Assembly: GCA_038087875.1 (NCBI GenBank)
Contig: CM075994.1
Location: 7,938,001 to 8,002,000, forward strand
From: Malacoraja senta
Lineage: Eukaryota
Direction: 5' to 3'
DNA: 64,000 nt
Position 1 is the stretch's first letter, and each line of letters begins with the position of its first letter. Below the pieces are notes generated by a model, which was not told the origin of the DNA, did not search any database, and was given only the letters and a program-made list of their open reading frames with translations. The position numbers and the translations under genes are program-made. Below, piece by piece: positions 468 to 24,667 of the stretch.

Positions 468-559
468 CTTCTTTGATGGTCAGGACATTTTCATCTCCGA
501 TGCAGACCGCAATGATTTCCCGATCGGACGACAACTGCCCCTCCAGCCCTTTGGGGAGT
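468..559 (-). CDS. Same gene, coding exon 8 (I-LPKGLEGQLSSDREIIAVCIGDENVLTIKE); gene probably continues left of the window
   Basis: Acceptor cttgtgttttccag|, phase 2 in; candidate donor AAG|gtttga at 467; alternatively reads on to TGA at 433-435 as a last exon. Confidence 0.65.
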
Positions 560-919
560 CTGGAAAACACAAGCAGGAAAACAATAGACAATAGACAATA
601 GGTGCAGGAGTCAGCACCACCATTCAATGTGATCATGGCTGATCATCCCCAATCAGTACCCCGTTCCCGCCTTCTCCCCATATCCCCTTTAAGAGCACCA
701 TCTAACTCTCTCTTGAAAGCATCCAGAGAATCGGCCTCCACTGCCTTCTGAGGCAGAGAATTCCAGACACAATGACGTCTATTTTTCTCCACATTGTAGG
801 TTTAGTGTTTAGTATATTTTAGAGATAGAGCGCAGAAACAGGCCCTTCGGCCTACCGAGTCCGTGCCGACCAGCGATCAATCCCCGCACACTAACACACA
901 CTATGGACACCGGGGGTGT

Positions 920-2345
920 CCATGCCCAGACCCTAACGATGTACCAGACCCTAACGACCCTAATCAGCTCCAGACCCAGACTCCAACGTCCATCAGACCC
1001 TATCCCCGATACTCTAATGACCCCAAGAATCTAACTACCCCAAGAGTCCACGACCCCAACAAACACCAAGAGACTCGAACGATCCCGGGACCCCAACAAC
1101 CCCAATGCTCTTAATGATCCTAATAATCGCAAGAATCTAACTACCCTGAGACTCCAAGAGCCCAAGACTAACGACCCCTAAGAGACTCTAATGACCCCCA
1201 GATCCTAACGACCCCTGACCCTAATGACCCAGAGACGCTAACGACCCTAGACCCTAACGACCCAGAGACCCTAATAACCCCCAGACCCTAACGACCCCGG
1301 CACTAACGACACTAGACCCTAACGACCCACAGACCCTAGACCCTAACGACCCCCAGACACCAATGACCCAGACCCTAACGACCCCCAGACCCTAAAGACC
1401 CCGGCACCAACGAACCCGGCACTAACGAACCCGGCACTAACGACCCTAGACCCCAGACACTCTAACGACCCCAGACCCTAACGACCCCCAGACCCTAATG
1501 ACCCCAGACCCTAAAGAACCCGGCACTAACGAACCCGGCACTAACGAACCCGGCACTAACGAACCCGGCACGAGCGACCCTAGACCCCAGTGACCCAGAG
1601 ACCCTAACGACCCCAGACCCTAACAACCCCAGACCCTATCGACCTGACTCTTTACGACCCCAGACCCTAACGACCCAGAGACACTAATGACCCCCAGACC
1701 CTAACGACCCAGAGACCCTAACGACCCCAGACCCTAACGACCCCAGACCCTAACGACCCCAGACCCTAACGACCCCAGACCCTAACGACCCCAGACCCTA
1801 ACGACCCCCAGACCCTAACGACCCCCAGACCCTAACGACCCCAGACCCAAGCGACCCAGAGACCCTAACAACCCCAGACCAAAACGACTGAGACCCTAGC
1901 GAACCCAGAGACCCCAGACCCTAACAACCCAGAGACCCTAATGACCCCAGACCCTAACGACCGAGACCCTAGCGAACCCAGAGACCCCAGACCCTAGCAA
2001 CCCAGAGACCCTAACGACCGAGACTCTAGCGAACCCACGACTCTAAAGACCCCAAGCCCGACAGCACAACCATGACCCAAAGGCTCTGTGACCTTGACCC
2101 CCAAGACTCCACGACATTGACACCAGGCTCCGTGACCTTGACCCCAGGCACCATTACCTTGATCCCAGGCACCGTGACCTTGACCCCAGGCTCCGTGACC
2201 TTGACCCCGGGCACCGTGTCATTGACCCCGGGCACCGTGTCCTTGACCCCGGGCACCGTGTCCTTGACCCCAGGCACCGTGTCATTGACCCCAGGCACCG
2301 TGACCGTGACCCCCAAGACTCCACGACCCAGTACGACTCGCACAA
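920..2345. repeat. GACCC-rich minisatellite (16-19 bp gaccctaacgacccca units, then 21-bp gaccccaggcaccgtgacctt units)
   Basis: Visible tandem periodicity. Confidence 0.95.
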
Positions 2346-2430
2346 ACCCCCGTGAAAAAAGCAAAAGCCTGCAAAACAACAGACTGGTGCAAGAGAATTG
2401 GAGCGGATGCAGTGAGTCAGCGTTACTCAC

Positions 2431-2673
2431 ATCCTCGATGAGCTCATGGACTCCGTCTCTTTATGCTTTGGATCAGAGCCTCTGCTGCTCCACCCACAGG
2501 GCTCCAGCTTGCAGTTCCCGCCGCCCAGCTCCCATCCCTCCGGCGTGGCTCGTCGGGCCTCGTGGTTGATCAACGCCACCGGCCTGGGTCTCCTGTGCCT
2601 CGCGTTGCCCCCGTACTGGGAGTCCGTGCCACTGAAGAAGTCAGCCTCGGCCTCATCCCCAAAGCTGTCCATG
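2431..2673 (-). CDS. Same gene, coding exon 7 (S-MDSFGDEAEADFFSGTDSQYGGNARHRRPRP...KETESMSSSR-I)
   Basis: Acceptor ccttgccttccag|, donor AT|gtgagt; 243 nt, phase 2/2, open. Confidence 0.8.
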
Positions 2674-5597
2674 CTGGAAGGCAAGGTCACATGTTATCCC
2701 AGTAGAATTAGGCCATTCGGCCCATCAGGTCCACTCCTCCATTCAATCGTGGCTGATCTCTGCCTCCTAATCCCCTTCTCCTGCCTTCTCCCCGTAACCC
2801 TTAACACGATACGATACGATCGAACTTTATTGATCCCAGGAGGGAAATTGATCGGCCAACAGTCATAAAAACACAAAATACATGAAACATGAAATTAAAG
2901 TGACAAGTGGAAAAGAATGGGGATGTGCAAAGATTGGGGACACCCGTTCTAATCAAGAATCTATCTATCTCTGCCTTAAAAATATCCACTGACTTGGCCA
3001 CCTCTATGGCAATGAGTTCCACAGAATCACCACCCTCTGACTAAAGAAATTCCTCCTCAAGAGAGCATTGCATTCAGGAACAGAGGCTCCAACGGACTAT
3101 CCTTGATCGGACTTTGCTGGCTTTACCATGCACTAAATGTTATTCCCTTATCATGTATCCGTACACTGTAAACGGCTTGATTGTAATCATGTATAGTCTT
3201 TCTACTGACTGGTTAGCATGCAACAAAAGCTTTTCACTGCGCCTCGGTACACGTGACAATAAACTAAACTGAACATATGTGCAAACAAGAAACTGCAGAT
3301 GCTGGAATCTAGCATAGCGGGTAGAGTCGCTGCCTCCCAGTGCCAGAGACCTGGGTTCCATTCTGACTACGGGTGCTGTCTGTGCGGAGTTTGTACGTTC
3401 TCCCCATCACCTGCATGGGTTCTCCCCGGGTGCTCCGGTTTCCTCCCCCACTCCTAAGATGCACAGGTTTGTAGGCAACTGGCTTCGGTAAAGATTGTAA
3501 ATTGTCTGTAGTATGTACGATAGCGTGCGGGGATCGCTGGTCAGCGCGGACTCGGTGGGCCGAAGGGCCTATTTCTCCAAACACGCTGCATCTCGAAACT
3601 AAACAAAATGCTGGAGTAACTCGGCGGGTCAGGCAGCATCTCTGAAAGACAGGGATGGGGGACGTTTCGGATTGAGACCCTTCTACACCAAACTTGTTAA
3701 TATATTCGTAGGGTCTCGACCTGAAACGATACCCATTCCTTCTCTCCAGAGATGCTGCCTGCCCCGCTGAGTTACTCCAGCATTTTGTGTCTATCTTCAA
3801 TATATTGGTTTGCCTACTCTGCTTCCCGTTATAAATTCTCCTGCTTCTGAATTCCTTATACATCTTCCCTCACCTTTTCCTTGCGACATAATTCAGATGT
3901 TTCAGAGTCGGCGTACTCATTCCTTGCAAGGCTAATCTTGTATTCCATATTTAATAATAATAATAATAATACATTTTATTTATGGGCGCCTTTCAAGAGT
4001 CTCAAGCACACCTTACAAAATTTAACAAATAGTGTAGAAACATGTAAGCGGAATGAAATAAATAGTAAAGACATCACCAGTACACAAATTAAAGACAGAA
4101 TTCAACCCGAAAACAAAAAATCAAAAACACAATATGGAAGAGAGAGCAGCGGCTGCTAAAACGCGCCAGCGTCCACTCTCCCCTCCGGCAGCCATCTTGG
4201 ACACAGAAAAAAATATAATTTACATACAAAAATCATCCCCCCACAATGATTACCACTGTGGGGGAAGGCACAATGTCCAGTCCCCATCCCCAGTTCTCCC
4301 AAAGTCAGGCCTTTTGAGGCCTCCACAGTTGCCTCTACGGAGGCCCGATGTTCCTGGCCGTTCTCGCCGGGTGCAGTTGCCCCGACGTCGGGAGTCCTCA
4401 CAGCGGCTGGGACGGCCAATTCCCTACCGGAGTCCGTTCCACTTACTCTCTTAATCAATCTCTTGAATCATAGAACATGGAACAGTACATCAAAGGAACA
4501 GGCTGTGCCACCACAATGTCCGTGCCCGACATGAAGCCAAGACTAACTGATCTCCTCTGCCTGCACGTGATCCTCCATTCCTTGCATATCCATGTGCCTA
4601 TCTAAAAGCCTCTTAAACCCCACTATCCCATCTGCCTCCACCACCAACCCCTGGCAGCGCGTTCCAGGTCCCCACTAACCTTTGTGTGAAAGTAAGCTCT
4701 CCCGTGTTACTCAGCTGGACACAAAAATGCCGGAGTAACTCAGCGGGTCAGGTAGCATATCTGGAGAACGTTGATAGACGTTCTCAGACTCAAAGCTTTT
4801 ATATCAGTGTAAGTAAGTGGGGTGGCACGGTGGCGCAGCGGTAGAGTTGCTGCCTCACAGCGCCGGAGACCCGGGTTCCATCCCGACTACGGGTGCTGTC
4901 TGCACGGATTCTGGGCGTTCTCTCCGTGGGTTTTCCCTGAGATTTTTGGTTTCCTCCCACGCTCCAATGACGCACCAAGTTTGTAGGCTAATTGGCTTGG
5001 TAAAAATGTGAAAATGTCACCAGTGTGCGTCGGGTAGTGTTAATGTGCGGGGATCGCTGGTCGCTGCCTGGTCGACTTGATGGGCCCGTTTCCGCACTGT
5101 ATCTCTAAACTAATTAAAGCAAACTAAAACTTGCCCTGCACATTTTTAAACTTAACACATCTTCTTTATACTTTGCTCCTTTCCCCTTAGAGCTATGCCC
5201 ACTAGTCTTTGATATTTCCATCCTGCGAATGCTGTACGACTCCACTAATCACCTCCAGTAGGCACCTGGAGAAAACCCACGCAGGTCACGGGGAGAACAT
5301 ACAAACTCCGTACAGACAGCACCCGTAGTTGGGATCGAACTCGGGTCTCCGACGCTGTGAGGCAGCAACTTTAGTTTAGTTTAGAGATACAGCGTGAAAA
5401 CAGGCCCTTCAGCCCACCGGGTCCGTGCCGACCAGCGATCCCCACACACTAAAGGGCCTGTCGCACTTTCCCGAGTTACTCACGAATTCTCCCGAGTTTT
5501 CCCCTCGACTCAAACTCGGAGATGCCAGCCGTAGGTACTCGGGGCTATTATTTATACTCGTGGACATTTTTCAACATGCTGAAAAAACGTCCCGAAT

Positions 5598-6559
5598 GTC
5601 CTCATTCCTCAGGGTTCCCCTCCTCCACCATAGATGAGGCTCGCACCAGGAACTCTGCCATACCCCGCAACACTGCTCTCCCTCCCCATCCCCCCACTCA
5701 CAACAAGGGCAGAGTCCCCCTAGTCCTCACCTTTCACCCCACCAGCCGTCACATACAACAAGTGATCCTCCGTCAGTTTCGCCACCTCCAACGTGACCCC
5801 ACCACTCGCCACATCTTCCCATCTCCCCCCATGTCTGCCTTCCGCAAAGACCGCTCCCTCCGTAACTCCCTTGTCAATTCTTCCCTTCCCTTCCGTACCA
5901 CCCCCTCCCCGGGTACTGTCCCTTGCAACCGCAAGAGATGCAACACTTGTCCCTTCACCTCCCCCCTCGACTCCATTCAAGGACCCTAGCAGTCGTTCCA
6001 GGTGCGACAGAGGTTCACCTGCATCTCCTCCAACCTCATCTATTGCATCCGCTGCTCTAGATGCCAGCTGATCTACATCAGTGAGACCAAGCGGAGGCTT
6101 GGCGATCGTTTCGCCGAACACCTCCGGTCGGTCCGCAATAACCTACCTGACCACCCGGTGGCTCAGCACTTCAACTCCCCCTCCCATTCCGTATCTGACC
6201 TCTCTGTCCTGGGTCTCCTCCATGGCCAACACCGGAAATTGGAGGAAATGCACCTCATATTCCGCTTGGGCAGTCTACATCCTGGGGGCATGAACATTGA
6301 ATTCTCTAGATTTTGCTAGCCCTTGCTGTCCCCTCCCCTTCATCAGCCCTCTGGTTGTCTCCTCCCATCCCTCAGCCCTCGGGCTCCTCCTCCGCCTTTT
6401 TTCCTTTCTTCTCCCCACCCCCTATCAGTCTGAAGAAGGGTTTCGGCCCGAAACGTTGCCTATTTCCTTCGCTCCATAGATGCTGCTGCACCCGCTGAGT
6501 TTCTCCAGCATTTGTGTGTACCTTCGATTATCCAGCATCTGCAGTTCCTTCTTTAACAC
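5598..6559 (+). mobile_element. Penelope-like 3' fragment (GIY-YIG) nested in a MITE
   Basis: Same GIY-YIG peptide; ~11-bp duplication acg(t/c)cccgaat at 5587-5597 and 6560-6570. Confidence 0.9.
6428..6459 (+). ncRNA. Minimal type I hammerhead-ribozyme-like motif in a Penelope 3' end
   Basis: gt-CTGAAGA-a-GGGTTTCGGCCC-GAAAC-GTT-gc. Confidence 0.6.
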
Positions 6560-7083
6560 ACGCCCCGAATTACCTGATGCCCCGAGTACCTACGGCTGGC
6601 ATTACGAGCCGCTACAAAATATCTATGGCCTCCTACGGACATTCCCCGAGTTTGAATCAAGGGGAGAACCTGGTAGAATTCGTGAGTAACTCGGGAAAGG
6701 GGCTTAACACTACCCTACACACACTAGTCTAGGGACAATTTTTACATTTACCGAGCCAATTTACCTACAAACCTGGACGTCTTTGGAGTGTGGGAAGAAA
6801 TCAAAGATCTCGGAGAAAACACACGCGTGTCACAGGGAAAACGTGCAAACTCCGTACAGACAGCACCAGTAGTCAGGATCGAACCCGGGTCTCCGGCTCT
6901 GCGTTCGCTGTAAGGCAGCAACTCTACCGCTGCACCACCCTCGAAATGAATGCGAACATTGCATTTGCCTTCCTCACTGCCGAATCAACCTGCTGCCCGA
7001 CCCGCTGAGTTCCTCTTCCCTGTTGCGTTTTGACCAACAGACAGACAGACGCCGGGGGGTCAGACCCGCGAGAAGCTCAGTAC

Positions 7084-7165
7084 CTGCTGGGGTGAGAGAG
7101 GGTGACGGTTGATTCGGATCCTGCTGACAGTGACAGAGACGTGTAGCTGTCCAAGTCGTCTTGGT
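7084..7165 (-). CDS. Same gene, coding exon 6 (D-QDDLDSYTSLSLSAGSESTVTLSHPS-S)
   Basis: Long polypyrimidine acceptor ctctcccttctccccag|, donor CAG|gtactg; 82 nt, phase 1 in / 2 out. Confidence 0.75.
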
Positions 7166-9149
7166 CTGGGGAGAAGGGAGAGCAGAGAAAAAAAACCACG
7201 TGAAAACCATCACCGCCTCAAGGGTTGTGTCAAGGGTCAAACAAGACAATTTCAGCTACAGTGCAAAAACGGAGTCATCAGATGAATTAGCAGCACTGCA
7301 TTAGAAACATGGAAAATAGGTGCAGGAGTTGCCCATTCGGCCCTTCGAGCCAACACTGCCATTCAATATGATCATGGCTGATCATCCACAATCAGTACCC
7401 CGTTCTTGCTTTCTCCCCATATCCCTTGATTCCGTTAGCCCTAAGAGCTAAATCTAACTCTCTCTTGAAAACATCCAGTCAATTGGACTCCGCTGCCTTC
7501 TGTGGCAGAGAATTCCACAGATTCACAACTCTCTGTGTGAAAACGTTTTTTTCCTCATCTCAGTCCTAAATGGCCGACCCCTTATTCTTAAACTGTGGCC
7601 CCTGGTTCTGGACTCCCCCCCAACATGGGGAACATGTTTCCTGCATCTAGCCTGGCCAATCCCTGAAGAATTCTGTACGTTTCTATAAGACCCCCTCTCA
7701 TACTTCCAAATTCCAGTGAATTTGTCGTCTTGGAGCCTAGGAAGCCGACGGGCAGAAAATGGATCCCTGGTGAGTTTGGAGTTTAGTTTGGTTTAGAATC
7801 ATGCTGCGTGCTCTGCCGTATGCTCGGGGTTTGCGAGTGCGTACAGGGATACGTGAGTGTATGTGCCTTGTCTAGCAGTGCAATAATCAAACTCTGTTGT
7901 CTGAATCCAGCGGTTTATCGAACACAACATCAAGACTTGCTGGCACTGAAACGCTCCTGAAGCATCGTCACACTCAAGGTCGGAAGAAGGGCCTCGACCC
8001 AAAACGTCGCCTAATCCTTCTCTTCAGAGATGCTGCCCGAGTCTGTGGTGAATCTGTGGAATTCACTGCCACAGACAGCTGTGGAGGCCAAGTCAGTGGG
8101 TATTTTTTAAGACAGAGATAGATCAGTACAGGTGTCAGGGGTTATGGGGAGAAGGCAGGAGAATGGGGTTGAGAGGGAGAGATAGATCAGCCATGGTTGA
8201 ATGGCGGAGTGGACTTGATGGGCAGAATGGCCCAATTCTGCTCCTATCACTTATGAACGGGGGCAGGTTGGGCTGGTGCAGAAGGGGCATGTTGGTCAAA
8301 CCCGCTGCGTTACTCCAGCTTTTACTGCATATCATCGACTTTTTTATACTACACTTATCTACATTCCCTTTCTTATGTCAACCAGGGCTCTCCCGCCTGG
8401 CGCCGTGACTCGCGGATGGCCAGTGAATACACAAGGTAAAGGAGTTCACATTTTCCATGCTGTGTTGCTACTAAAGATGGGAGTCGCTCCATTTTACCTT
8501 ATAAGTAGCTTAAAGGGGATGAGGAGGATTTTTTTTCGTCAGAGGGTGGTGAATCTGTGGAATTCATTGCCACAGACGGCTGTGGAAGCCAAGTCAGTGG
8601 ATATTTTTAAGGCAGAGATTGGTAGGTTCTTGATTAGTACGGGCGTCAGGGGTTATGGGGAGAAGGAAGGAGAATGGGGTTAGGAGGGAGAGATAGATCA
8701 GCCGTGATTGAATGGTGGAGTTGACTTGATGGGCCGAATGGCCTAATTCTGCTGCTATCACTCATGGATTTATGAACGGGGCCAGGTGCCACTGGCGCAG
8801 GCGGGGCATGTTGGTCAAACCCGCTGGGTTTTGTGTGCTGGAGAGAACAAATGGGCGACGTTTCAGGTCGAGGTTGTAGTGTTTTAATAGCCTGATGGCC
8901 ATAGGGAAGTAGCTGTTCCTGAAACTGGACATTACAGTTTTCAGGCTCCTGTAACATACTTCCCGATGGCAGGGAGTGGGATGAGAGAGTGGCCAGGATG
9001 GTGTGTGTCTCTGATGATGTTGGCTGCCTTTTTGAGGCAGCGACTCCTGTAGATCCCTTCGATGGTGGGGAGGCCAGAGCCCGTGATGGACTGGGCAGTG
9101 TCCACAACTTTGGGCAGACTTCTTTGCTCCCCCGGGCGTTCGAGTTGCC

Positions 9150-9850
9150 AAGATAAGACACAAAAAGCTGGAGTAACTCAGCGGGACAGGCAGCATCTCT
9201 GAAGAGAAGGAGGGAAGCAAAAAGAGTGACTTTTCGGGTTCAGACCCTCCTTCAGACTGATGTCAGCGGACAGGGAGATAATAGATAAGGAAGTGTCAGG
9301 TGTGAAAATAGGACAAAGGGAATGGAGATCAAGGAACATGTAGAATAGATCATTGTTAGCTGGGAGAAAGTAACAACAAAACAAACAGAGATGAAATGTA
9401 GAACTGGGAAGGGGGAGGGGATGGAGAGAGAGAGGGAAAGCAAGGGCTACTTGAAGTTAGAGAGGTCAATGTTCATACTGCTGGGGTGTAAGCTGCCCAA
9501 GCAAAATATGAGGTGCTGTTCCTCCAATTAGCGCTGGGCCTCACTCTGACAGTGGAGGAGGCCCAGGACAGAAAGGTCAGTGTGGGAATGGGAGGGGGAG
9601 TTAAAGTGTTTGGCAACCGGGAGATCAGGTAGGTTTAGGCGGACTGAGCGGAGGTGTTCAGCGGAACGATCGCCGAGCCTGCGCTTGGTCTCGCCGATGG
9701 CAGAGTCCACACCTGGAACAGCGGATACAGTAGATGAGGTTGGAGGAGGTGCAAGTGAACCTCTGCCTCACCTGGAACGACTGTTGTGGTTCTTGGACGG
9801 AGTCGAGGGGAGAGGTGTAGGGACAGGTGTTGCATCTCCTGCGGTTGCAG
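9150..9850 (-). mobile_element. Penelope-like 3' fragment
   Basis: CNRRRCNTC, RFTCTSSNLIYCIRCSRC, GETKRRLGDR. Confidence 0.85.
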
Positions 9851-10257
9851 GATGTTTCCACTGGTGGGAGAGTCGAGGACCAGAGGTCACAGCCCCAGAA
9901 ATAAAGGGCGCTCTTTTAGAAAGGCGAGGAGGAACTTCTTTAGTCCGAGGGAAGTGAATCTGTGGAACTCATTGCCACAGAGGACTGGAGGCCAAGTCAG
10001 TGGATATTTTTAAGGCAGAGATAGACAAATTCTTGATTAGAACACACGTCAAGGGTTCTGGGGAGAAGGCAGGAGAATGAGATTAGGAGGGAGAGATCAG
10101 CCATGATTGAATGGCGGAGTGGACTTGATGGGCCGAATGGCCTAATTCTGCTCCTGGAAGTTGTGAACTTGTGAATTTGCATCCTCTGGTATCTCGTCTT
10201 TTGTTCCTCCCCGATACCGACTGACGTAAAATCTGTAACCCGTCAGGAATAACAAAC

Positions 10258-10355
10258 CTGGGACTGAATCGCAAATGAAATCAGTTCTCTCGTCCGCACC
10301 ATCTTCTAGGAAGGCACAACTTGGCCCAGGCAGATCCATTTGATTTTCTATAAAC
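10258..10355 (-). CDS. Same gene, coding exon 5 (V-FIENQMDLPGPSCAFLEDGADERTDFICDSVP-D)
   Basis: Acceptor ttcttgccttttctag|G, donor CAG|gtttgt; 98 nt, phase 2 in / 1 out. Confidence 0.75.
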
Positions 10356-10835
10356 CTAGAAAAGGCAAGAAATTCAGGTCAACGTTCAAACCTACGACAG
10401 GTAGTGAGGTCGCACAGTCACACAGCACGGACACAGGCCCTTCGGCCCAACTTGCCGGCACAGACCTTCAAGCCCCATCTACACTAGTCCCACCTGCCCG
10501 CGTTTGGCCCGTATGCCTCCAAACCTTGGAGTAACAATGTACAGATACAGGATAAATGGAGTGTGCGGGAAGGAACTGCAGATGCTGGTTTACACTGAAG
10601 ACGGACTCACAATGCTGGAGTAACTCAGCGGGACAGGAATCATCTCTGGAGAGAAGGAATGGGTGACGTTTCGGGTCGAGACCCTTTTTCAGACTGGTAA
10701 CGTTTTCACCTGAAACGTCACCCACTCCTTATCTCCAGAGATGCTTCCTGTCCCGCTGAGTTACTCCAGCATTTGCCAATCTTTTATTCCTTGTTCTTTA
10801 TCTCTCCACATCATCGTCTATATCATCCACATCAT

Positions 10836-11256: not shown

Positions 11257-11689
11257 TATATCATCCACATCATCCCTTATCCCAGAACCAGTCTGAAGAA
11301 GGATCTCGACCCGAAACATCACCCATTCCTTCTCTCCAGAGATGCTGCCTGAGTTACTCCAGCGTTTAGTGTCCATCCTCGATTTAAACCAGCATCTGCA
11401 GTTCTTTCCTACACATTCCCTGTAAACCTTTCCCACCCGTTCAAAAGTCTTTTAAATATTGGAACAAGGTGCTGGAGGACACAAAGTGCTGGAGTAACTC
11501 AGTGGGTCAGACAGTGTCTCTGGAGAAAAAGGATGGGTGATGTTTCGGATGGAAAGTACTGACTCTGACAGTAGAGTGCAGGAGGGTAAAGGGTTGGAGA
11601 CGAGAAATGGCTTGGACCAGCCAGCCGCTACTTTCAGTCTGAAGAAGGGTCGTCAGATTCCAATCCGGGACTCTGGCACTGAGGCAAGT

Positions 11690-14195: not shown

Positions 14196-14220
14196 AGTTC
14201 AGCAACTCTACCGAAGTGTG

Positions 14221-15665
14221 CGATAAAGCTGAATTATGTTAAAAATATAAGAAAAGCTTACAGCTATATTTAGTCTCAAATCAGGCTTTTCTCCAGTAGA
14301 ATAATACAGAAAGGCAAGTTAAGTTGCCTCAGGTTTCGGGGTATTGAGATAATGAATACTATAACATTTGTCTCCCAAGTGACGAGAGAGGAAGCAGAGA
14401 AGAAGCTATGATAAGCTATGATATGTAAAATGCCTTGTACCAAATGTCCGATGTTTACGAGGGAGGAGGTGATGAGAGAGGAACCAGGGAAGTGGAAAGA
14501 TAAGATGCCATAAACCAAATGGCCTATGTTTATGAGGGACCAAGTGACAGAGAGGAAGCAGCGAAAGAGCTAGGGTGATCTCTTTGAAGATAAAATGACC
14601 TAAAACAAATGGCCAATGTTTTTAGTATATCTTGTACCATGTAAACAAAAGGCCTTTGATGTGATGCATTCTGTGGAAACCTTTTCCTGTACCTCTGACC
14701 ATGACTAATGTCTGTGGAATGTGCTAAGGGGACAAAAAAAAACTATTTAAGACAATGTAATTCTGTTGGTACACAAAAATGCTGGAGAAACTCAGCGGGT
14801 GCAGCAGCATCTATGGAGCGAAGGAAATAGGCAACGTTTCGGGCCGAAACCCTTCTTCAGACTGATAGGGGGTGGGGAGAAGAAAGGAAAAAAGGAAAAG
14901 GCGGAGGAGGAGCCCGAGGGCTGCGGGAGGGGAGGAGACAACCAGATGGCTGATGAAGGGGAGGGGACAGCCAGGGCTAGCAGAATTGGGAGAATTCAAT
15001 GTTCAGGCCACCAGGATGTAGACTGCCCAAGCGGAATATGAGGTGCATTTCCTCCAATTTACGGTGTTGCTCGCTGTGGCCATGGAGGAGACCCAGGACA
15101 GAGAGGTCAGATACGGAATGGGAGGGGGAGTTGAAGTGCTGATCCACCGGGAGTTCAGGTTGGTTATTGCGGACCGACCGGAGGTGTTCGGCGAAACGAT
15201 CGCCAAGCCTCCGCTTGGTCTCACCGATGTAGATCAGCTGGCATCTAGAGCAGCGAATGCAATAGATGAGGTTGGAGGAGATGCAGGTGAACCTCTGTCG
15301 CACCTGGAACGACTGCTTGGGTCCTTGAATGGAGTGGAGGGGGGAGGTGAAGGGACAAGTGTTGCATCTCTTGCGGTTGCAAGGGAAAGTACCAGGGGAG
15401 GGGGTGGTATGGGAGGGAAGGGAAGAATTGACAAGGGAGTTACGGAGGGAGCGGTCTTTGCGGAAGGCAGACAATGTAATTCTGTTGTTCAGAGAAGGGG
15501 ACCGAGGACAGTCGAGTGTCTACATTGGTCACTTAGCTGGAATTCTCGCTCCCTTCCATCGGCCGATGTTAAGTAAAGTTTTGAACTGGTCTACCAAACG
15601 TTTTTGTGTGTTGTCTGTTTATTAAGAAGCGAACCTGTTTAGTTGTTATAAAAGTAACTTTTTCA
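14221..15665 (+). mobile_element. Probable solo LTR split by a Penelope insertion
   Basis: Imperfect terminal inverted ends (cgataaagc... / ...actttttca), flanking TGTG duplication, internal ~80-bp repeats, TATTTAA and AGTAAA. Confidence 0.5.
14769..15470 (-). mobile_element. Penelope-like (Neptune-type) 3' fragment with GIY-YIG endonuclease
   Basis: CNRKRCNTC linker, NLIYCIRCSRCQLIYIGETKRRLGDRFAEH; duplication agacaatgtaattctgttg at 14750-14768 and 15469-15487. Confidence 0.9.
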
Positions 15666-16354
15666 TGTGCTCCGCCATTCAATCATGGCTGCATCTCGAA
15701 ACTAAACTGAAGTTTTTGTCTTTAGTTTTAGAGATAAAGCGCGGAAACAGGCTCGCCGAGTCCGCGCCAACCAGCGATCCCCGCACATTAACACTATCCC
15801 ACACACACCAGGGACAATTTACATTTACACCAAGCCAATTGACCCACAAACCAGCACGTCTTGGAGTGTGGGAGGAAACCGGAGATCCCGGAGGAAACCC
15901 ACGCAGGTCACGGGGAGAACGTACAGACAAGTACCTGGGGTCAGGATCGAACCCGGGTCTCTGGCGCTGTGAGGCAGCAACTCTACCACTGCGCCACCGT
16001 GCTGCCCTTTATCTCCAGAGATGCTGCCTGGCCCGCTGAGTTACTCCAGCATTTTATGTCTATCCCTATGACATAGGAGCTAAATTAGGCCATTCAGCCC
16101 ATCGAGTCTGCAGCCCCGTTTGGTCACGGCTGCATCGCTAAACTAAGTTTTTAGTCGTAGGGCTACAGTGCCGAAACAGGCCCTTCGGCCCACTGAGTCC
16201 GCGCCGACCAGCGATCCCCGCACACTAACACCGTCCTAGACTAGGGACAATTTACACATATCCGTAGTCAGGATCGAACCTTGGTCTCTGGCTCTGTGAG
16301 GCAGTAACACTACCACTGCACCATCGTTCAGCCCTTTATCTCCAGAGATGCTGC

Positions 16355-17020
16355 ATGACCCTCCCCGGGTACTTTCCCCTGCAACCGCAGGAGATGCAAC
16401 ACCTGTCCCATCACCTCCCCCCTCGACTCCATCCAAGGGCCCCAAGCAGTCTTTCCAGGTGAGGCAGAGGTTCACCTGCACCTCCTCCAACCTCATCTAC
16501 TGCATCCGCTGTTCCAGGTGTCAACTTATCTACATCGGCGAGACCAAGCGCAGGCTTAACCTACCTGATCTCCCGGTGGCTCAGCACTTCAACTCCCCCT
16601 CCCATTCCCACACTGACCTTTCTGCCCTGGGCCTCCTCCACTGTCAGAGTGAGGCCCAGCGCTAATTGGAGGAACAGGACCTCATATTTTGCTTGGGTAG
16701 TTTACACCCCAGCGGTATGAACATTGACTTCTCTAGCTTCACATAGCCCTTGCTTTCCCTCTCTCTCTCCATCCCCTCCCCCTTCCCAGTTCTCCCACTA
16801 GTCTTACTGTCTCCGACTACATTCTATCTTTGTCCCGCCCCCCTCCTCTGACATCAGTCTGAAGAAGGGTCTCGACCCAAAACGTCACCCATTCCTTCTC
16901 TCCACAGATGCTGCCTCACCCGCTGAATTACTCCAGCATTTTGAGTCTACCTTTGATTTTAACCAGCATCTGCAGTTCTTTCTTCCACATGCTGCATGAC
17001 CCGCTGAGTTCCTCCAGCAT
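16355..17020 (+). mobile_element. Penelope-like 3' fragment
   Basis: QRFTCTSSNLIYCIRCSRCQLIYIGETKRR plus the 3' tail. Confidence 0.85.
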
Positions 17021-17184
17021 TTTATGTCCATCGTTACTATCCTATATACGCTAGGGACAATTTACAGTCGACATCATGGGCATGGGACCAGGTTAGGCTA
17101 GTCTAGTCCGCGCTGCCATTCGATCGTGGCTGCACCTCTAAACTCAACTAAAGTGGGAAGGGGAGAGAAGGTGGAGTTACTTAC

Positions 17185-17433
17185 ACGTCCAGTAGGACTT
17201 TGGCCATTTCCTCGTCGGTCTTCAGGTCGAGACGGGCTTTCAGACATCTCCATCGCTCCTGCTGCTCTCCGATGAAGATCTCGGCCCTCCAGGGTCTCCC
17301 GCCGCCAGGGTCAACCGCCGCCAACGGCAGCCTCGCCAGCCGCACCCGCTCGCCCTCCTGCCCGCGGTGACCACCTTCGCACGCCACCATGGCGGGTGCG
17401 TGCCGACTGCCGCTGGCACCGTGCCTGGTATTT
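17185..17433 (-). CDS. Same gene, coding exon 4 (R-NTRHGASGSRHAPAMVACEGG...EIFIGEQQERWRCLKARLDLKTDEEMAKVLLD-V); motif copy 2
   Basis: Acceptor tgtccgctcttgcag|, canonical donor GT|gtaagt; 249 nt, phase 2/2; C-terminal part aligns with exon 1. Confidence 0.8.
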
Positions 17434-17639
17434 CTGCAAGAGCGGACAGCACAGCTCGTTTTCTTACGGGAATGAAAAATCCTTTTATTCCATGAGTCAC
17501 GTGGATCGGCGCGTCACCAACAACCCTCGCCAACTTCTACAGGAGCGCCGCGGAAAGCGTGTTGCCGGGATATATCGCAGCTGGGAACGGCTCCATCCAA
17601 GACCGCAAGAAATTGCAGGGTTGTGGATCGTCGTATATG

Positions 17640-19190
17640 TATCGTTGTACAGGGCCCTAGTGAGACCACACCTGGAGTATTGTGTGCAGTTTTGGTCCCC
17701 TAATTTGAGGAAGGACCTTCTTGCTATTGAGGGAGTGCAGCGTAGGTTTACAAGGTTAATTCCTGGGATGGCGGGACTGACATATGCTGAGAGAATGGAG
17801 CGGCTGGGCTTGTATACTCTGGAGTTTAGAAGGATGAGAGGATATCTTATTGAAACATATAAGATTAAGGGTTTGGACACACTAGAGGTAGGAAACATGT
17901 TCCCGATGTTGGGGGAGTCCAGAACCAGGGGCCACAGTTTAAGAATAAGGGGTAAGCCATTTAGAACAGAGACGAGGAAACACTTTTTCTCAGAGAGTTG
18001 TGAGTCTGTGGAATTCTCTGCCTCAGAGGGCGGTGGAGGCCAGTTCTCTGGATGCTTTCAAGAGAGAGCTAGATAGGGCTCTTAAAGATAGCGGAGTCAG
18101 GGGATATGGGGAGAAGGCAGGAACGGGGTACTGATTGGGGATGATCAGCCATGATCGCATTGAATGGCGGTGCTGGCTCGAAGGGCCGAATGGCCTACTC
18201 CTGCACCTATTGTCTATTGTCAGTCCCGCCATCCCGGGAATTAACCTGGTGAACCGACGCTGCACTCCCTCAACAGCAGGGCCTTGGTGAGACCGCACCT
18301 GGAGTGTTGTGTACAGTTTTGGTCTCCTAATTTGAGGAAGATCATTTGTGCTATGGGACTGGCATATGATGAAAGAATGGATCGACTGGACTTATATTCA
18401 CTGGAATTTAGAAGGATCGGAGGGGATCTTACAGAAACACAGAAAATTCTTCAGGGATTGCACAGGCTAGATGCAGGAAATATGGTCCCGATCTTGGGGG
18501 AGTCCAGAGCCAGGGGTCACACAGTTTAAGAATAAGGGGTAGGCCTTACTCATAAGGAGTAAGAGTTATTTAGAAACATAGAAAACAGGTGCCTGAGTAG
18601 GCCATTCGGCCCTTCTTGCCAGCACCACCATTCAATATGCTCAGGGCTGATCATCTAAGATCAGTACCCCATTCCTGCTTTTTCCCCATATTCCTTCAGC
18701 CCCAAGAGCTAAATCTAACTCTCTCTTGAAAACATCCAGTGAATTGGCCTCCACTGCCTGTGGCAGAAAATTCCACAGATTCACAACTCTCTAGGTGAAA
18801 AAGCTTTTCCTCATCTCAGTCCCAAATGGCCTACCCCTTATTCTTAAACTGTGACCCCTGGTTCTGGACTCCCCCAACATCAGGAACATTTTTCCAGCAT
18901 TTAGCCTGTCCAATTTTATATGTTTCTATAAGACTCCCTCTCATCCTTCTAAATTCCAGTGATTATAAGCCCAGTTGACACATTCTTTCATCATATGCCA
19001 GTCCCGCCATCCCGGGAATTAACCTGGTGAACCTACGCTGCACTCCCTCAATAGCACGAATGTCCTTCCTCAAATTAGGAGACCAGAACTGCACACAATA
19101 CTCCAGGTGCGGTCTCATCAGGACTCTGCTATTGAGGGAGTGCAGCGTAGGTTCACCTGGTTAATTCCTGGGATGGCGTGACTCACATAT
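17640..19190. mobile_element. Cluster of CR1 3' fragments in both orientations
   Basis: RPHLEYCVQFWSP, QRRFTRLIPGM and TRGHSLRI peptides on both strands. Confidence 0.85.
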
Positions 19191-19759
19191 GACGATCCAC
19201 AACTCTCTGCAGTTTCTTGCGGCCTTGGATGGATCCGTTCCCGAACCGTGCTGTGATGCATCCTGATAACATGCTTTCCATGGCGCATCCGTCGAAGTTG
19301 GTGAGAGTTGTTGGGGACATGCCAAACTTAGTTTAGTTTAGTTTAGAGATACAGCGCGGAAACAGGCCCTTCGTCCCACTGGGTCAGTGCCGACCAGCGA
19401 TCCCCGCATATTAACACTACCCTACACCCACTAGGGACAATTTTTACATTTACACCAAGCCAATTAACCTACAGACCTGTACGTCTTTGGAGTGTGGGAG
19501 GAAACCGAAGATCTCGGAGAAAACCCACGCAGGTCATGGGGAGAACGTACAGACTCCGTACAGACAGCGCCCGTAGTCGGAATCGAACACGGGTCTCCAG
19601 CGCTGCATTTGCTGTAAGGCGGGAACTCTACCGCTGCGCCACCGTGACCGCCCTAAGCTTTCTAAGGAAGTAGAGGCGGTGGTGGAGTCCATTTTACCAA
19701 GCCGATTAACCTGCAACCCGGTATATCTTTGTAGCCTGCTGTTAAACGTGGCACAGTAC

Positions 19760-19901
19760 CTGCCTGATCGCGACCTCCTGCCCTTGGGCTTCGTGTCGTC
19801 GGGGCGACTTTTCTGCCACGGTGGAGGTCGGGCAACGAGCCTTCGCATTTTGCCCGCAGTTGGCGTGGGCCAGAAGGGGCTGGCGTCGTGGACAGAGTCA
19901 C
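19760..19901 (-). CDS. Same gene, coding exon 3 (G-DSVHDASPFWPTPTAGKMRRLVARPPPWQKSRPDDTKPKGRRSRSG-R)
   Basis: Acceptor tgtccttgtcttgaag|, donor CAG|gtactg; 142 nt, phase 1 in / 2 out, open and compatible with both neighbours. Confidence 0.7.
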
Positions 19902-19964
19902 CTTCAAGACAAGGACAGACAGCAAACCATCAGGCATCATCCGCAATCCACTGGGCGCAATTTT

Positions 19965-20505
19965 CCATAGACAATTGGTGCAGGAGTAGGCCATTCGGCT
20001 CTTCGAGCCAACACCATGGGTGATCATGGCTGATCATCCCCAATCAGTACCCCGTTCCCTTCTCCCCATATCCCTTGACTCTGCTATCTTTAAGAGCTCT
20101 ATCTAACTCTCTCGAAAGCATCCAGAGAATTGGCCTCCACTGCCTTCTGAGGCAGAGAATTCCACAGATTCACAACTCTCTGGATGAAAACGTTTTCCTC
20201 ATCTCCGTACTAAATGGCCTACCCCTTATTCTTAAACTGTGGCCCCTGGTTCTGGATTCCCCCAACACCGAGAACATGTTTCCTGCCTCTAGTGTGTCCA
20301 ATCCCTTAATAATTTTATATGTTTCTATAAGATTCCCTCTCATCCTTCTAAATTCCAGTGTATACAAGCCCAATTGCTCCATTCTTTCAACATGTGACAG
20401 TCCCGCCATCCCGGGAATTAACCTTGTGAATCTACGCTGCACTCCCTCAATAGCAAGAATGTCCTTCCTCATATTTGGAGACCAAAATGGGACACAATAC
20501 TCCAG
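19965..20505 (-). mobile_element. CR1 3' fragment
   Basis: HLEYCVPFWSP...TRGHSLRIRG. Confidence 0.85.
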
Positions 20506-20599: not shown

Positions 20600-21452
20600 G
20601 GAGGAACCCGTGTAGGTGGGGCAAGTTAGTCTGCATGGGCAAGTTAGGCCGAAGGGCTTGTTTCCCCACTGTAAAGTCTGAAGGATACAAGTCAAACACG
20701 GGCAGGTAGGACCAGTGCACGGCATGAGCAAGTTGGGCCGAAGGGCCTGTTTCCATGCTCTAGAGCCTAAATTATATGGGTCAAACATGGGCAGGTGGGA
20801 CTAGTGTAGGTGGGGCACCTTAGTAGGCATGGGCAAGTTGGGTTGAATGCCCTGTTTCCACGCTGTAAACTCTAAAGTCTAAAGGATATGGGTCATACTC
20901 AGGCAGGTGGGACCAGTGCAGGTGAGGCAAGTTGGTCGGAATGGACAGGTTGGGCCGAAGGGCCTGTTTCCATGCCGTAACCTCTACAATGTAATGGATA
21001 TGGGTCAAACGCGGGCAGATGGAAGATGTGCATGTAGGTCGGCATGGACAAGTAGGGCCGAAGGGCAGGCTTCCACACTGTAAAATCTAAAGCATGGGTA
21101 GGTGGGACTCATGTAGGTGGGGCATGTAGGTCGGCATGGGCAAGTAGGGCCGAAGGGCAGGCTTCCACACTGTAAAATCTAAAGCATGGGTAGGTGGGAC
21201 TCATGTAGGTGGGGCATGTAGGTCGGCATGGGCAAGTAGGGCCGAAGGGCAGGCTTCCACACAGTAAAATCTAAAGCATGGGTAGGTGGGACTCATGTAG
21301 GTGGGACATGTAGGTCGGCATGGGCAAGTCGGGCCGAAGGGCAGGTTTCCACGCTGTAAAGTCTAAAGCATGAGTAGGTGGGACTCATGTAGGTTGGGCA
21401 TGTAGGTCGGCTTGGGCAAGTTGGGCCGAAGGGCCTGTTTGTACGCTGTAAC
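20600..21452 (+). repeat. Minisatellite derived from the CR1 3' tail (~90-bp units)
   Basis: Repeated ggtgggact..tgtaggtggggcatgt.ggtcggcatgggcaagt.gggccgaagggc. Confidence 0.85.
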
Positions 21453-21574: not shown

Positions 21575-21675
21575 CTCCCCCGTGCGTTGCGCGGGTCACC
21601 GCTACGGCCTCAGTGGAGGGGTCGTCCAGCTCAGTCTGGCCGGGACGGGCATGGCACATGTGGACCTTCACAAAC
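21575..21675 (-). CDS. Same gene, coding exon 2 (V-FVKVHMCHARPGQTELDDPSTEAVAVTRATHGG-G)
   Basis: Acceptor ctttctgttgcag|G; phase 2 in; donor GGAG|gtgggc gives phase 1 out (donor position less certain); unique GC-rich island among repeats. Confidence 0.65.
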
Positions 21676-21744: not shown

Positions 21745-22960
21745 CTCATAGAGTGATACAGTGTTGAAACAGGCCCTTTGGCCCAACTTGCCCACACCGG
21801 CCAACATGTCCCATTTACACTAGTTCCACCTGCCTGTGCTTGGTCCATATCCCTCCAAACCTGTCCTATCCATGTACCTGTCTAACTGTTTCTTAAACAT
21901 TGGATAGTCCCAGCTCCTCTGGCAGCTCGTTCCATACACCCATCACTCTTTGTGTGAAAAAGTTACCCCTCAGATTCCTATTAAATCTTTTCCCTTCACC
22001 TTGAACCTATGTCCTCTAGTCCTCGATTCCCCTAGTCTGGGCAAGAGGCTCTGTGCATCTACCCGATCTATTCCTCTCATGATTTTAAACACCTCAATAA
22101 GATCACCCCTCATCCTCCTGCGCTCCAAGGAATAGAGTCGCAGCCTGTCCTCTTGTCTCTCCCTCCCGCCCTTCCTACGCACCCCCTTTCCTGAACCCCT
22201 CATGCTACCTCCCTCCCCTCTCTTCTTCCCTTCCATTCCTCTCCTCCACCACACACTGTTCTCCCTTCCCCCTCTACCCCTTCCCCCCTCCATTCCCCTC
22301 CTGCCCTCCCTCCCTGCCTCCCTCCCTGCCTCCCCTCCAACTCCAGAGGAGTTGAGTTTAGGAGCAAGGAGGTCCTACTGCAGTTGTACAGAGCCCTGGT
22401 GAGACCACACCTGGAGTATTGTGTGTAGTTTTGGTCTCCTTGTTTGAGGGACATTCTTGTTATTGAGGGAGTGCAGCGTAGGTTCACCAGGTTAATTCCC
22501 GGGATGGCGGGACTGTCATATGATGAAAGAATGGATCGACTGGGCTTGTATTCACTGGAATTTAGAAGGATGAGAGGTGATCTTATAGAAACATATTAAA
22601 TTCTTAAGGGATTGGACTGGCTAGATGCAGGAAACATGTTCTCCATGTTGGGAGCGTCCAGAACCAGGGGTCACACAGTTTAAGAATAAGGGGTCGGCCA
22701 TTTAGGACCGAGATGAGGAAAAAAAAATTCACCCAGAGAGTTTAATCTGTGGAATTCTCTGCCACAGAAGGCAGTGGAGGCCAATTCACTGGGATGTTTT
22801 CAAGAGAGTTAGATTTAGCTCTTTGGGCTAACAGAATCAAGGGATATGGGGAGAAAGCAGGAACGGGATACTGGTTCTGGATGATCAGCCATTGGATGGC
22901 GGTGCTGGCTCAAAGGGCTGAATGGCCTCCTCCTGCACCTGTTGTCTATTGTCTATGTTT
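21745..22960. mobile_element. Two CR1 3' fragments (- then +)
   Basis: CR1 ORF2 C-terminal peptides and 3' tails. Confidence 0.8.
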
Positions 22961-22964
22961 CTGT

Positions 22965-24550
22965 TTCACTGTTCCCACTCTCCCTCCTCGCCTCCCCTCC
23001 CCTACTCTCCCTCATCCCTGTAAACAATTTCCCCTCCCTCTGACCCTTGCTCTATCACTCTCCTCCATCCTACCCCCTCGTTTCCTCCCCTCCCTCTCCT
23101 CACTCGCTGTCTCCCTCCACCCTCCCTACCCCTACAACACTCCCCCCTTCCCTCTCCCACTCCATCCCTCCCAACCCTGCAACACGCTCTCCCCTCCATT
23201 CCCCTCCTCCAACACCCACTATCCCTCCTCCCCTCCCCTCTGTCCCTCCTTTCCTCCAACAGCCTCCTCCATCTACCCCCTTCTTCCTCCCCTCCTTTCC
23301 CCTCCCAACACCCACTTTCCCTCCTCCCCTCCATACCCTCTGTCCCTCCTTTCCTCCAACACCCTCCTCCATCTCCCCCCCTGTCCCTCCTCTTCTTCCT
23401 CCTCCCTCGCCCCATCCAACACTCACTGTCCCTGCTCCCTCCCCCTCCAAACACCCACTATCCTCCCTCCTCCTATTACCCCTCCCTCCACCTCTCTCCC
23501 CTCCCCCCCCCTCTCCACCCCACCCTCCCTCCCTCCTCCCCCCTCCCTCCTCCCCTCCTCTCTTCCTCCTCCTCCACTCTCCTTCCATCACCCTCTCTTC
23601 CTCCCTCCTCCACTCTCCCACTCTCCTCTCTTCCACTCCCTCTCTTCTCCCTCACTCCTCTCTCCTCCCTCACTCCTCCCTCCTCCACCCTCCCTCCTCC
23701 ACTCTCCCGCCTCCACTCTCCCTCCTCCACTCTCCCTCCTCCACCCTCCCTCCTCCACCCTCCCTCTCCCTCCTCCACTCTCCCTCCCTCTCCCTCCTCC
23801 ACTCTCCCTCCTCCACTCTCCCCCCTCCCTCCTCCACTCTCCTCTCTTCAACTCTCCTCTCCTCCACTCTCCCTCTCTTCCTCCCTCCTCTCTTCCACTC
23901 TCCCTCCTCCACCCTCCACCCTCCCTCTCCCTCCAATCTCCTCCACCCTCCACCCTCCCTCCTCCACCCTCCCTCCTCCACCCTCCTCCACTCTCCCTCC
24001 TCCACTCTCCACCCTCCCCTCACCCTCCTCCACTCACCCTCCCTCCTGCACTCTCCCACCTCCACTCTCACTCTGCCTCCTCCACTCTCACTCTCCCACC
24101 TCCACTCTCCCTCCTCCACCCTCCCTCCTCCACTCTCCTCTCTTCAACTCTCCCTCCTCCACCCTCCCTCCTCCACCCTCCCTCCTCCACTCTCCTCTCT
24201 TCAACTCTCCCTCCTCCACCCTCCCTCCTCCACCCTCCCTCCTCCACTCTCCTCTCTTCAACTCTCCCTCCTCCACCCTCCCTCTTCCACTCTCCCTCCT
24301 CCACTCTCCCTCTCCCTCCTCCACCCTCCCTCCTCCACCTCTGTCCCTCCACCCTCCACTCACCCTCCCTCCTCCACTCACCCTCCCCTCTCCACTCTCC
24401 CTCCTCCACTCTCCTCCACCCTCACTCTCCTCCTCCCCTCCACACTCCTCCCTCTCCACTCTCCCACACTCTTCTCCTCCTCCCCCTCCACTCACCCTCT
24501 CTTCCTCCTCCTCCACCCTCCCTCCCCTCTCCTCTCCCCTCCCCCCTCTC
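22965..24550. repeat. 1.6-kb C/T-rich low-complexity tract in intron 1
   Basis: Nearly pure C/T with ctccactctccctc units. Confidence 0.95.
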
Positions 24551-24554
24551 TCAC

Positions 24555-24667
24555 ACGTCGAGCAGGGTGCGGGCCAGCGCCTCGTCGCTCTGCAGCCGCA
24601 GCTGCCTCTTCACTCGGTCCCAGCGGTGGATCTGCTGGCCCAGGGTGACGGCCCCACAGCCCGCCAT
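24555..24667 (-). CDS. Uncharacterised spliced gene, coding exon 1 (MAGCGAVTLGQQIHRWDRVKRQLRLQSDEALARTLLD-V); motif copy 1
   Basis: ATG in AAGATGGCG context inside a CpG-rich island; 113 nt ending GAC GT|gtgaga (phase-2 donor); an in-frame upstream ATG at 24694 is an alternative start. Confidence 0.75.

What the first reader, a model, noticed from the sequence alone, without database searches (positions are those of the whole stretch)
468..24667. Hidden 8-exon gene built from a duplicated exon cassette with two copies of a short helical motif
Seen: eight unique islands join with GT-AG sites in one frame (exit phases 2,1,2,2,1,2,2,1; about 373 aa). Exon 1 ends LGQQIHRWDRVKRQLRLQSDEALARTLLD-V|F and exon 4 ends IGEQQERWRCLKARLDLKTDEEMAKVLLD-V|F, with the intron at the same point in the Val codon. 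Each is followed by a ~100-nt phase 2-1 exon (101 and 98 nt) and then a phase 1-2 exon with the same CAG|gtactg donor, which implies an ancient 3-exon internal duplication. From memory, the motif resembles the poorly characterised N-terminal segment of ZNF692/ZNF653-type C2H2 proteins and many fish zinc-finger proteins (IG...RW..L...L...D..LA..LLD). Inference: this may be a chondrichthyan transcription-regulator family with a tandem effector or dimerisation module, with any DNA-binding domain lying left of the window.
Basis: partly seen in the sequence, partly recalled or inferred. Interest (0 to 1): 0.8.

Follow-up and report, generated by a model that had tools for sequence, protein, structure and literature searches.

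The report
Triple ribbon-helix-helix-like shark and ray gene
This is a real spliced gene shared by sharks, rays and skates, built from a repeated three-exon block; its relatives carry three copies of a small module predicted to fold like a bacterial ribbon-helix-helix DNA-binding dimer and no zinc fingers, so it likely works as a pairing adaptor that modulates other gene regulators.

Summary
Eight minus-strand exons join GT-AG into 373 open codons with the stated phases. The Amblyraja RefSeq model joins exons 2-8 identically (308/330 identical). One sequencing-run contig holds exons 4 and 7 exactly 429 nt apart, the length of exons 4-6.

Orthologues occur in 16 shark, ray and skate species, all 'uncharacterized'. 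Exon 4 is a skippable cassette in two sharks, not a separate paralogue.

The motif's nearest predicted structures are ZNF692 clusters (TM 0.78-0.80) and bacterial NikA/MobC-type proteins. 18 of 50 solved-structure hits are ribbon-helix-helix (RHH) type, but only at Z 2.6-3.7. There is no sequence-level link to RHH families and the dimer could not be modelled.

Best reading: a zinc-finger-less, multivalent RHH-like dimerisation adaptor whose valency is set by splicing. Only the skippable copy usually keeps a basic strand (11 of 16 species; not this one).

The parts
24661..24998 (.). CpG-rich promoter / 5' region with six AASATGGCSG sites (YY1-like, label recalled); one overlaps the start ATG; partly a 56-bp tandem repeat at 24674-24818
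   Evidence: 6 of the 7 window matches lie here, 0.33 expected, 0 of 100 shuffles reach 7; CpG o/e 0.79, GC 0.64
24555..24667 (-). Exon 1 coding part: start ATG (an in-frame upstream ATG lies at 24694) and motif copy 1 (about 24649-24555)
   Evidence: orthologues also begin M-A and join LLD-A-F into exon 2
21575..21675 (-). Exon 2 (phase 2-1); completes helix 2 of copy 1; paralogue of exon 5
19760..19901 (-). Exon 3 (phase 1-2); disordered, ends in a conserved basic stretch (NLS-like, inferred)
   Evidence: basic end matched in 16 of 17 models
17185..17433 (-). Exon 4 (phase 2-2, symmetric); carries motif copy 2 (about 17279-17185); cassette exon skipped in some isoforms of relatives
10258..10355 (-). 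Exon 5 (phase 2-1); completes helix 2 of copy 2
   Evidence: its length is implied by the contig offset
7084..7165 (-). Exon 6 (phase 1-2); conserved acidic Ser/Thr-rich repeat, paralogue of exon 9 (left of the window)
   Evidence: (z 10.6)
2431..2673 (-). Exon 7 (phase 2-2, 243 nt); sits where a motif exon would be in the third block but has no motif
468..559 (-). Exon 8 (phase 2-1); hydrophobic strand in acidic context, and the start of a psi-K-x-E SUMO-type site completed by exon 9. Exons 9-11, with motif copy 3, are expected left of the window
   Evidence: site present in 14 of 14 models that reach it; no further exon found inside the window by tblastn

Best explanation
This is a spliced shark, ray and skate gene made of a repeated three-exon block, whose relatives carry three copies of a module predicted to be a ribbon-helix-helix (RHH)-like half-domain on long linkers predicted to be disordered and have no zinc finger, so it likely acts as a nuclear multivalent pairing adaptor that would modulate other regulators bearing the same module. 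Shown: exons, frame, orthologues, three copies, no C2H2, and exon-4-skipping gene models in two sharks. Predicted: strand-turn-helix-helix fold shared with ZNF692 clusters and bacterial RHH proteins; disordered linkers. Inferred: an RHH half cannot stand alone, so each copy pairs with another copy or with the like module of a ZNF692-type zinc-finger protein. With three copies one is always left free to bind another chain (bridging, oligomer or sink); skipping exon 4 leaves two that could close on each other. Copies 1 and 3 lack the basic strand residue, and this species has Glu there in copy 2, so pairing is more likely than direct DNA reading here. Conserved NLS-like, SUMO-type and acidic Ser/Thr motifs would supply nuclear import and cofactor contacts.
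For: Gene. Family and architecture: (three copies in full-length Carcharodon, Cetorhinus, Mustelus, S. torazame, Mobula, Hemitrygon, Hypanus models). Splicing: Cetorhinus X1/X2 and S. torazame X1/X2 differ only by the 88 residues of exon 4, 0 other mismatches; 4 of 4 Narcine models lack it. Fold: AlphaFold2 gives an extended segment plus two helices, pLDDT 87-91 over residues 21-45. Two core positions of the segment are hydrophobic in 22 of 22 rows, one residue apart, before an invariant Gly. Atlas structure neighbours are 4 chordate clusters (2 named ZNF692, TM 0.80 and 0.78 over 47 residues) and 4 bacterial clusters (NikA-like, MobC, mixed, DUF5388; TM 0.58-0.69). 18 of 50 rows from the full-length orthologue model are RHH or RHH-like (most labels recalled). 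RHH domains work as dimers with one strand per monomer (PMC6514445, passages). Linkers have pLDDT under 50. Basic residue before the strand: copy 2 11 of 16, copy 1 0 of 10, copy 3 0 of 13; psi-K-x-E in 14 of 14.
Against: All fold scores are weak: Z 2.6-3.7, none of 5 or more, rmsd 2.5-9.5 A for the RHH rows; 6 of the same 50 rows are bHLH proteins and the top row is unrelated. The single-motif model gave 18 LuxR-type HTH rows against 4 RHH-type rows of 45, all Z under 3. The Atlas warns that TM over 0.5 means little for short stretches and named no family for the aligned part. There is no profile similarity to a NikA/MobA alignment (probability 0.06%). Neither AlphaFold2 model shows a strand, and the full-length model (pTM 0.18) shows no paired copies. 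No partner, localisation or binding was tested. Exon-4 skipping was not seen in reads of this lineage (joint tables were swamped by repeats).
Confidence: 0.5

Rival explanations
1. It is a stand-alone sequence-specific DNA-binding factor: motif copies pair within one chain or between chains into RHH dimers whose ribbon reads the major groove, and including exon 4 (the basic copy) switches DNA binding on.
For: RHH-type neighbours. Copy 2 has 4-6 Lys/Arg in the 16 residues ending at the Gly in 7 of 7 models and R/K before the strand in 11 of 16 species. An unnamed relative, P0026, has a basic segment and R-I-Y-I-G at this place. Plant TCP factors are a eukaryotic precedent for RHH-like DNA binding (10.1101/2022.11.22.517060, passages).
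Against: Copies 1 and 3 have no basic residue there, copy 3 has Asp at the central outward position in 13 of 13, and this window and Amblyraja have Glu in copy 2. Narcine models lack copy 2 altogether. In ZNF692 and in the ZSWIM3_N proteins the motif accompanies a separate DNA-binding domain.
Confidence: 0.2
2. The motif is a two-helix docking element (in the manner of a KRAB- or SCAN-like effector, or an HLH-like dimer) rather than an RHH; the protein is a disordered scaffold that recruits several copies of one co-repressor or chromatin factor.
For: No strand in either model; HTH and bHLH rows; no sequence link to RHH profiles. ZNF692's N-terminal region is reported to mediate a protein interaction with NPM1 through an Arg-rich motif (PMC10956046, passages).
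Against: The alternating hydrophobic pattern plus invariant Gly before helix 1 fits a ribbon; two different structure searches returned RHH-type families. An RHH strand is not expected to form in a monomer model.
Confidence: 0.22
3. Exons 1-3 and exons 4 onward are two tandem paralogous genes, or the join is a chance assembly of open islands.
For: The exon 4 region is CpG-island-like (o/e 1.05) and holds an in-frame ATG; several RefSeq models, including Amblyraja's, lack exon 1. The E1-E2, E2-E3 and E3-E4 junctions were not shown in reads (one search covered only 2400-20200).
Against: Single gene models in 8 species hold copies 1, 2 and 3 in one chain. Amblyraja joins E2-E8 at the same points. 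The exon-4 ATG is not present in the non-skate orthologues. The run contig has 373 nt before exon 4, against 356 for exons 1-3 (compatible, not shown).
Confidence: 0.03

Closest known systems
ZNF692
   Same: The motif's Atlas model superposes on ZNF692-named clusters over all 47 residues, TM 0.80 and 0.78 (predicted against predicted; the position within ZNF692 is not given, N-terminal is recalled). Both have a long disordered middle (PMC10956046, passages).
   Different: ZNF692 has C-terminal C2H2 fingers (PF00096 in 100% of that cluster) and, as recalled, one copy of the module; this family has three copies and no finger. No ZNF692 protein came up in the sequence searches.
Prokaryotic ribbon-helix-helix (MetJ/Arc) proteins: NikR, NikA/MobC, MazE, ParD, TacA, KacA, PcfF
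   Same: Predicted order of extended segment, helix, short turn, helix over about 40 residues; repeated though weak structural hits.
   Different: No detectable sequence similarity; three copies in one long eukaryotic chain; two of three copies lack a basic strand residue. Tandem RHH in one chain is recalled for TraY and VirC2, but with two copies and short linkers.
Plant TCP transcription factors (RHH-like fold, PDB 5ZKT)
   Same: Eukaryotic precedent for an RHH-like dimer; 5zkt appears in both structure lists (Z 2.1 and 3.3).
   Different: TCP is a single DNA-binding domain per chain and plant-specific; no sequence link was found.
Unnamed ZSWIM3_N proteins with two motif copies (P0006, P0008-P0012, P0016)
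   Same: Two clear copies of the same motif, 41-50% mean identity to the shark copies.
   Different: They carry an N-terminal PF21599 ZSWIM3_N domain (E 1e-8 to 1e-17 in 6 of 6 scanned), with weak FAR1 matches; their two copies form their own groups, so their duplication looks independent (weakly resolved tree). Organism not given.

Membership tests
Elasmobranch uncharacterized family (e.g. Amblyraja LOC116969771, Carcharodon LOC121291627, Mobula LOC134346714) | Collinear similarity over all exons and the same junctions | tested here: met
   308 of 330 identical to Amblyraja over E2-E8; every exon aligns to Mobula and Carcharodon, 29-81% identity
ZNF692/ZFP91-type C2H2 proteins | C-terminal array of C2H2 zinc fingers | tested here: not met
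   0 C2H2 patterns in 27 of 27 orthologue models; no zf-C2H2 Pfam match. The window's own exons 9-11 are outside it, so this rests on orthologues
ZNF692/ZFP91-type C2H2 proteins | Shared small non-finger module | tested here: inconclusive
   Structural match of predicted models only, TM 0.78-0.80 over 47 residues; no ZNF692 or ZNF653 sequence was available for a profile test
Ribbon-helix-helix superfamily | Strand-helix-helix topology of about 40 residues with alternating hydrophobic strand | tested here: inconclusive
   Two helices and the pattern are present; RHH rows are enriched at Z 2.6-3.7 but HTH rows dominate; no strand assigned in the models
Ribbon-helix-helix superfamily | Intertwined dimer forming a two-stranded antiparallel sheet | not tested
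Ribbon-helix-helix superfamily | Polar or basic outward strand residues reading the major groove | tested here: inconclusive
   Basic residue in copy 2 of 11 of 16 species, in no copy 1 or 3; Glu in this window. Which positions face DNA is inferred from the pattern
Ribbon-helix-helix superfamily | Profile similarity to known RHH families | tested here: inconclusive
   None found: hhalign to an 11-row NikA/MobA alignment 0.06%; no RHH Pfam among 22 members at E up to 10. Only one RHH family was profiled and the domain is short
Ribbon-helix-helix superfamily | Sequence-specific DNA binding | not testable with these tools
   Needs EMSA, SELEX or ChIP

The most novel reading that the evidence does not exclude
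The motif is a true animal ribbon-helix-helix domain, widespread beside C2H2 and transposase-type DNA-binding domains, and this shark/ray gene is a stand-alone triple-RHH regulator in which one skippable exon switches it between a closed, non-binding pair and an open form that binds DNA or captures ZNF692-type factors, an RHH counterpart of the Id/bHLH network.
Probability: 0.25. Interest if true: 0.75.

Novelty: new variant of a known kind. Interest (0 to 1): 0.5.

Why it matters
RHH domains are described as a bacterial regulator family (PMC6514445), with plant TCP factors as a eukaryotic case (Plant-TFClass preprint). An RHH-like module repeated three times in a conserved vertebrate gene with no other folded domain isolates the module's function: what this protein does must largely be done by the module. 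That makes the role of the matching region in ZNF692-type proteins directly testable and predicts a heterodimer network among such factors. The gene is also a clean case of domain number set by exon-block duplication and splicing. If the fold call fails, it remains an uncharacterised lineage-restricted scaffold of modest interest.

Tried and rejected
No genome is held for the window, so exons 9-11 could not be read in this species.

Family scans: Pfam on the 8 exon peptides gave 0 matches; Pfam and PHROGs on 22 motif rows gave only scattered weak matches, best E 0.035, none in more than 2 members. PDB sequence search gave best E 0.3 and 0.16.

Structure: Foldseek against PDB and viral models gave nothing under E 2.5. 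The Atlas feature searches gave three unnamed chordate clusters at 0.87-0.90 and no usable named hit.

Prokaryotic relatives: tblastn of copy 2 on plasmids gave 7 hits at E 5-9, treated as chance; a viral-contig scan could not be run on the alignment; hhalign to R64 NikA gave 0.9% and to the NikA profile 0.06%.

Reads: no RNA holder is listed on record. In one search, repeats swamped the joint and loose-end tables (11,486 joints not shown), so there are no read-level junction counts; only table 8 was usable, and the informative run is labelled 'RNA? (probably DNA)'.

Tree: the motif tree has 42 columns, 8 of 38 branches well supported and possible long-branch joins; Narcine copy 1 was missed by the pattern. 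It supports grouping by position but not an order of duplication. A period-3 phase run has a simulated chance of 0.5%, but with recalled phase frequencies and chosen after the fact, so it carries little weight.

Literature: ten searches listed no paper on this gene or on an RHH fold in ZNF692-type proteins; the library lacks most subscription journals. Earlier-findings look-ups returned nothing relevant.

Rejected: C2H2 domain beyond exon 8; exon 4 as a separate gene; chance assembly.
Full report
Observation. The gene lies on the minus strand. Joining the eight islands at GT-AG sites gives 1120 nt and 373 codons without a stop, with exit phases 2,1,2,2,1,2,2,1. Within-window repeats cover 72% of the gene span but 0-4% of each exon. 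The exon 1 and exon 4 motifs share 14 of 32 residues (z 12.3), the only significant protein pair among the 28 window exon pairs; the intron falls in the same Val codon in both.

Independent support. The one hit of copy 2 was Amblyraja radiata XP_032872444.1 (partial), which joins exons 2-8 at the same points, 308 of 330 residues identical; the window is therefore probably a skate (inference). In one search, laid on 2400-20200 only, one 1894-nt contig of run X1 holds exon 4 at record positions 374-624 and exon 7 at 803-1042. The 429-nt offset equals exons 4+5+6 exactly, so this is a spliced form. The run is labelled 'RNA? (probably DNA)', it comes from a relative (20 differences in 491 letters), and exons 5 and 6 were not listed themselves. 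Repeats swamped the joint tables, so no junction was counted in reads.

Family. An exhaustive phmmer gave 12 proteins at E up to 0.001 and a motif-profile search 21 (limited to 8000 candidates). With cluster look-ups these cover 16 shark, ray and skate species, all named uncharacterized or hypothetical. No chimaera, bony fish or tetrapod protein appeared among the named hits, but the searches are not sensitive enough to show absence. Full-length models from 8 species hold three motif copies (N-terminal, middle, C-terminal) and end about 25 residues after the third. None of 27 models has a C2H2 pattern, and Pfam finds nothing significant in the 15 scanned.

Duplication. In Mobula and Carcharodon the exon-equivalent blocks match as E1/E4/E10 (p 0.0005), E6/E9 (p 0.0005) and E2/E5 (p 0.001), with weaker E2/E11 in both and E3/E6 in Carcharodon only; block limits are approximate and p values uncorrected for 55 pairs. 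E4, E7 and E10 are all 80-88 residues. The gene reads as four blocks, (1,2,3)(4,5,6)(7,8,9)(10,11), the third lacking the motif; that E7 once had it is inferred from size and phase only. Copies are more alike within a position across species (66-77%) than between positions (50-54%), so the duplications predate the shark/ray split; the tree is too weak to order them.

Splicing. Exon 4 is phase 2-2. Cetorhinus X1/X2 and S. torazame X1/X2 differ only by its 88 residues, and 4 of 4 Narcine models lack it. These are gene models, not reads seen here. They make exon 4 a cassette inside one gene rather than the start of a paralogue, although its CpG-rich setting (o/e 1.05) leaves an internal promoter open.

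Fold. AlphaFold2 on a 13-row alignment gave an extended segment and two helices (mean pLDDT 77). In 22 of 22 rows two hydrophobic positions one residue apart precede an invariant Gly, and R, W, L, D, E, A, L are invariant. The Atlas structure search on Amblyraja residues 122-168 returned 8 rows: 4 chordate clusters, 2 named ZNF692 (TM 0.80, 0.78), and 4 bacterial clusters (NikA-like, MobC, mixed, DUF5388; TM 0.58-0.69), all under the bar for naming a family. Searching solved chains with the full-length Mobula model, 18 of the 50 rows shown are RHH or RHH-like (NikR three times, MazE three times, ParD2, TacA twice, KacA, MatP, Reg576, YiiF, VapB12, CdbA, Rv0298, 1y9b, TCP; most labels recalled), mostly on copy 3, at Z 2.6-3.7; 6 rows are bHLH.

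Against the fold call. The single-motif model gave 18 LuxR-type HTH rows and 4 RHH-type rows of 45, all Z under 3. Foldseek, Pfam, PHROGs, PDB-sequence and hhalign tests were blank. No model shows a strand, and the full-length model (pTM 0.18) shows three separate helix pairs in low-confidence chain. The dimer could not be modelled. I put the RHH-like fold at about 0.65-0.7.

Mechanism. RHH domains bind DNA through a sheet made of one strand from each monomer (PMC6514445, passages), so each copy would need a partner. The residue before the first strand hydrophobe is Arg/Lys in copy 2 of 11 of 16 species but in 0 of 10 copies 1 and 0 of 13 copies 3; in this window and Amblyraja it is Glu. The same motif occurs twice behind a ZSWIM3_N domain in unnamed proteins, and beside C2H2 fingers if the ZNF692 match is real, which suggests a pairing module normally attached to a separate DNA-binding domain. 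A chain made only of such modules would most simply act as adaptor, bridge or sink, with splicing changing an odd number of copies into an even one. A psi-K-x-E site at the E8/E9 junction (14 of 14 models reaching it), a basic end of exon 3 (16 of 17) and the twice-repeated acidic Ser/Thr block fit a nuclear regulator; these readings are inferred from recalled consensus motifs. Six YY1-like sites within 340 bp of the start (0.33 expected in the window) suggest a broadly active promoter; the YY1 label is recalled.

Comparison and novelty. It works like a dimerisation-only relative of ZNF692-type factors but fails membership (no fingers); RHH membership is inconclusive. Ten literature searches listed nothing on this gene or on an RHH fold in ZNF692-type proteins. 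I have an unverified recollection that an RHH-like dimerisation domain in this group of human zinc-finger proteins has been reported; if so, the fold is known and the novelty is the finger-less triple, splice-variable architecture. Papers seen: passages of PMC6514445, PMC10956046, PMC1702500, PMC5415576 and 10.1101/2022.11.22.517060; all others as search listings only. No supplements were opened.

Verdict. A real, conserved, uncharacterised gene; a new variant of a known kind; interest 0.5.

Noticed in passing
window 25183-31662: LTR-bounded provirus-like element about 200 bp beyond the gene's promoter region: LTRs 25183-25727 and 31117-31662 are 99.6% identical over 546 nt (young insertion); an open stretch at 30237-31016 (+) matches PF00429 TLV_coat (E 1e-12); no other + strand open stretch of 180 codons or more lies inside it.
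   Followed up: partly
window 24661-24998: Six YY1-like AASATGGCSG sites, five on + and one on - overlapping the start codon, partly from a 56-bp tandem repeat; a seventh lies alone at 45044-45053.
   Followed up: partly
proteins P0006, P0008-P0012, P0016, P0035 (unnamed ENA records): A separate family with an N-terminal ZSWIM3_N (FAR1-like) domain plus two copies of the same motif; three members list the same longest-contig length (2,993,978), which hints at a local gene cluster.
   Followed up: partly
proteins P0026, P0034 (unnamed Logan records): Short proteins with an AT-hook-like basic start, a basic segment and one motif copy (E 0.01 to the profile); possibly the fuller form of the module.
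   Followed up: no
window 33498-35678 (-): Two long open stretches with weak endonuclease, GDSL-like and reverse-transcriptase Pfam matches: a LINE-type element, single-copy in the window.
   Followed up: partly
window 24555-24667 (-): Exon 1 is much shorter than in orthologues (38 residues against about 63-70 in Mobula and Carcharodon): the segment before copy 1, Arg-rich in sharks, is missing unless the upstream ATG at 24694 is used.
   Followed up: partly
window 1013-2313, 20633-21434, 23189-24554; N gap 38931-39130: Intronic satellites (16-bp, 21-bp and 89-112-bp units, and a long GA-rich tract) and one 200-base assembly gap.
   Followed up: no
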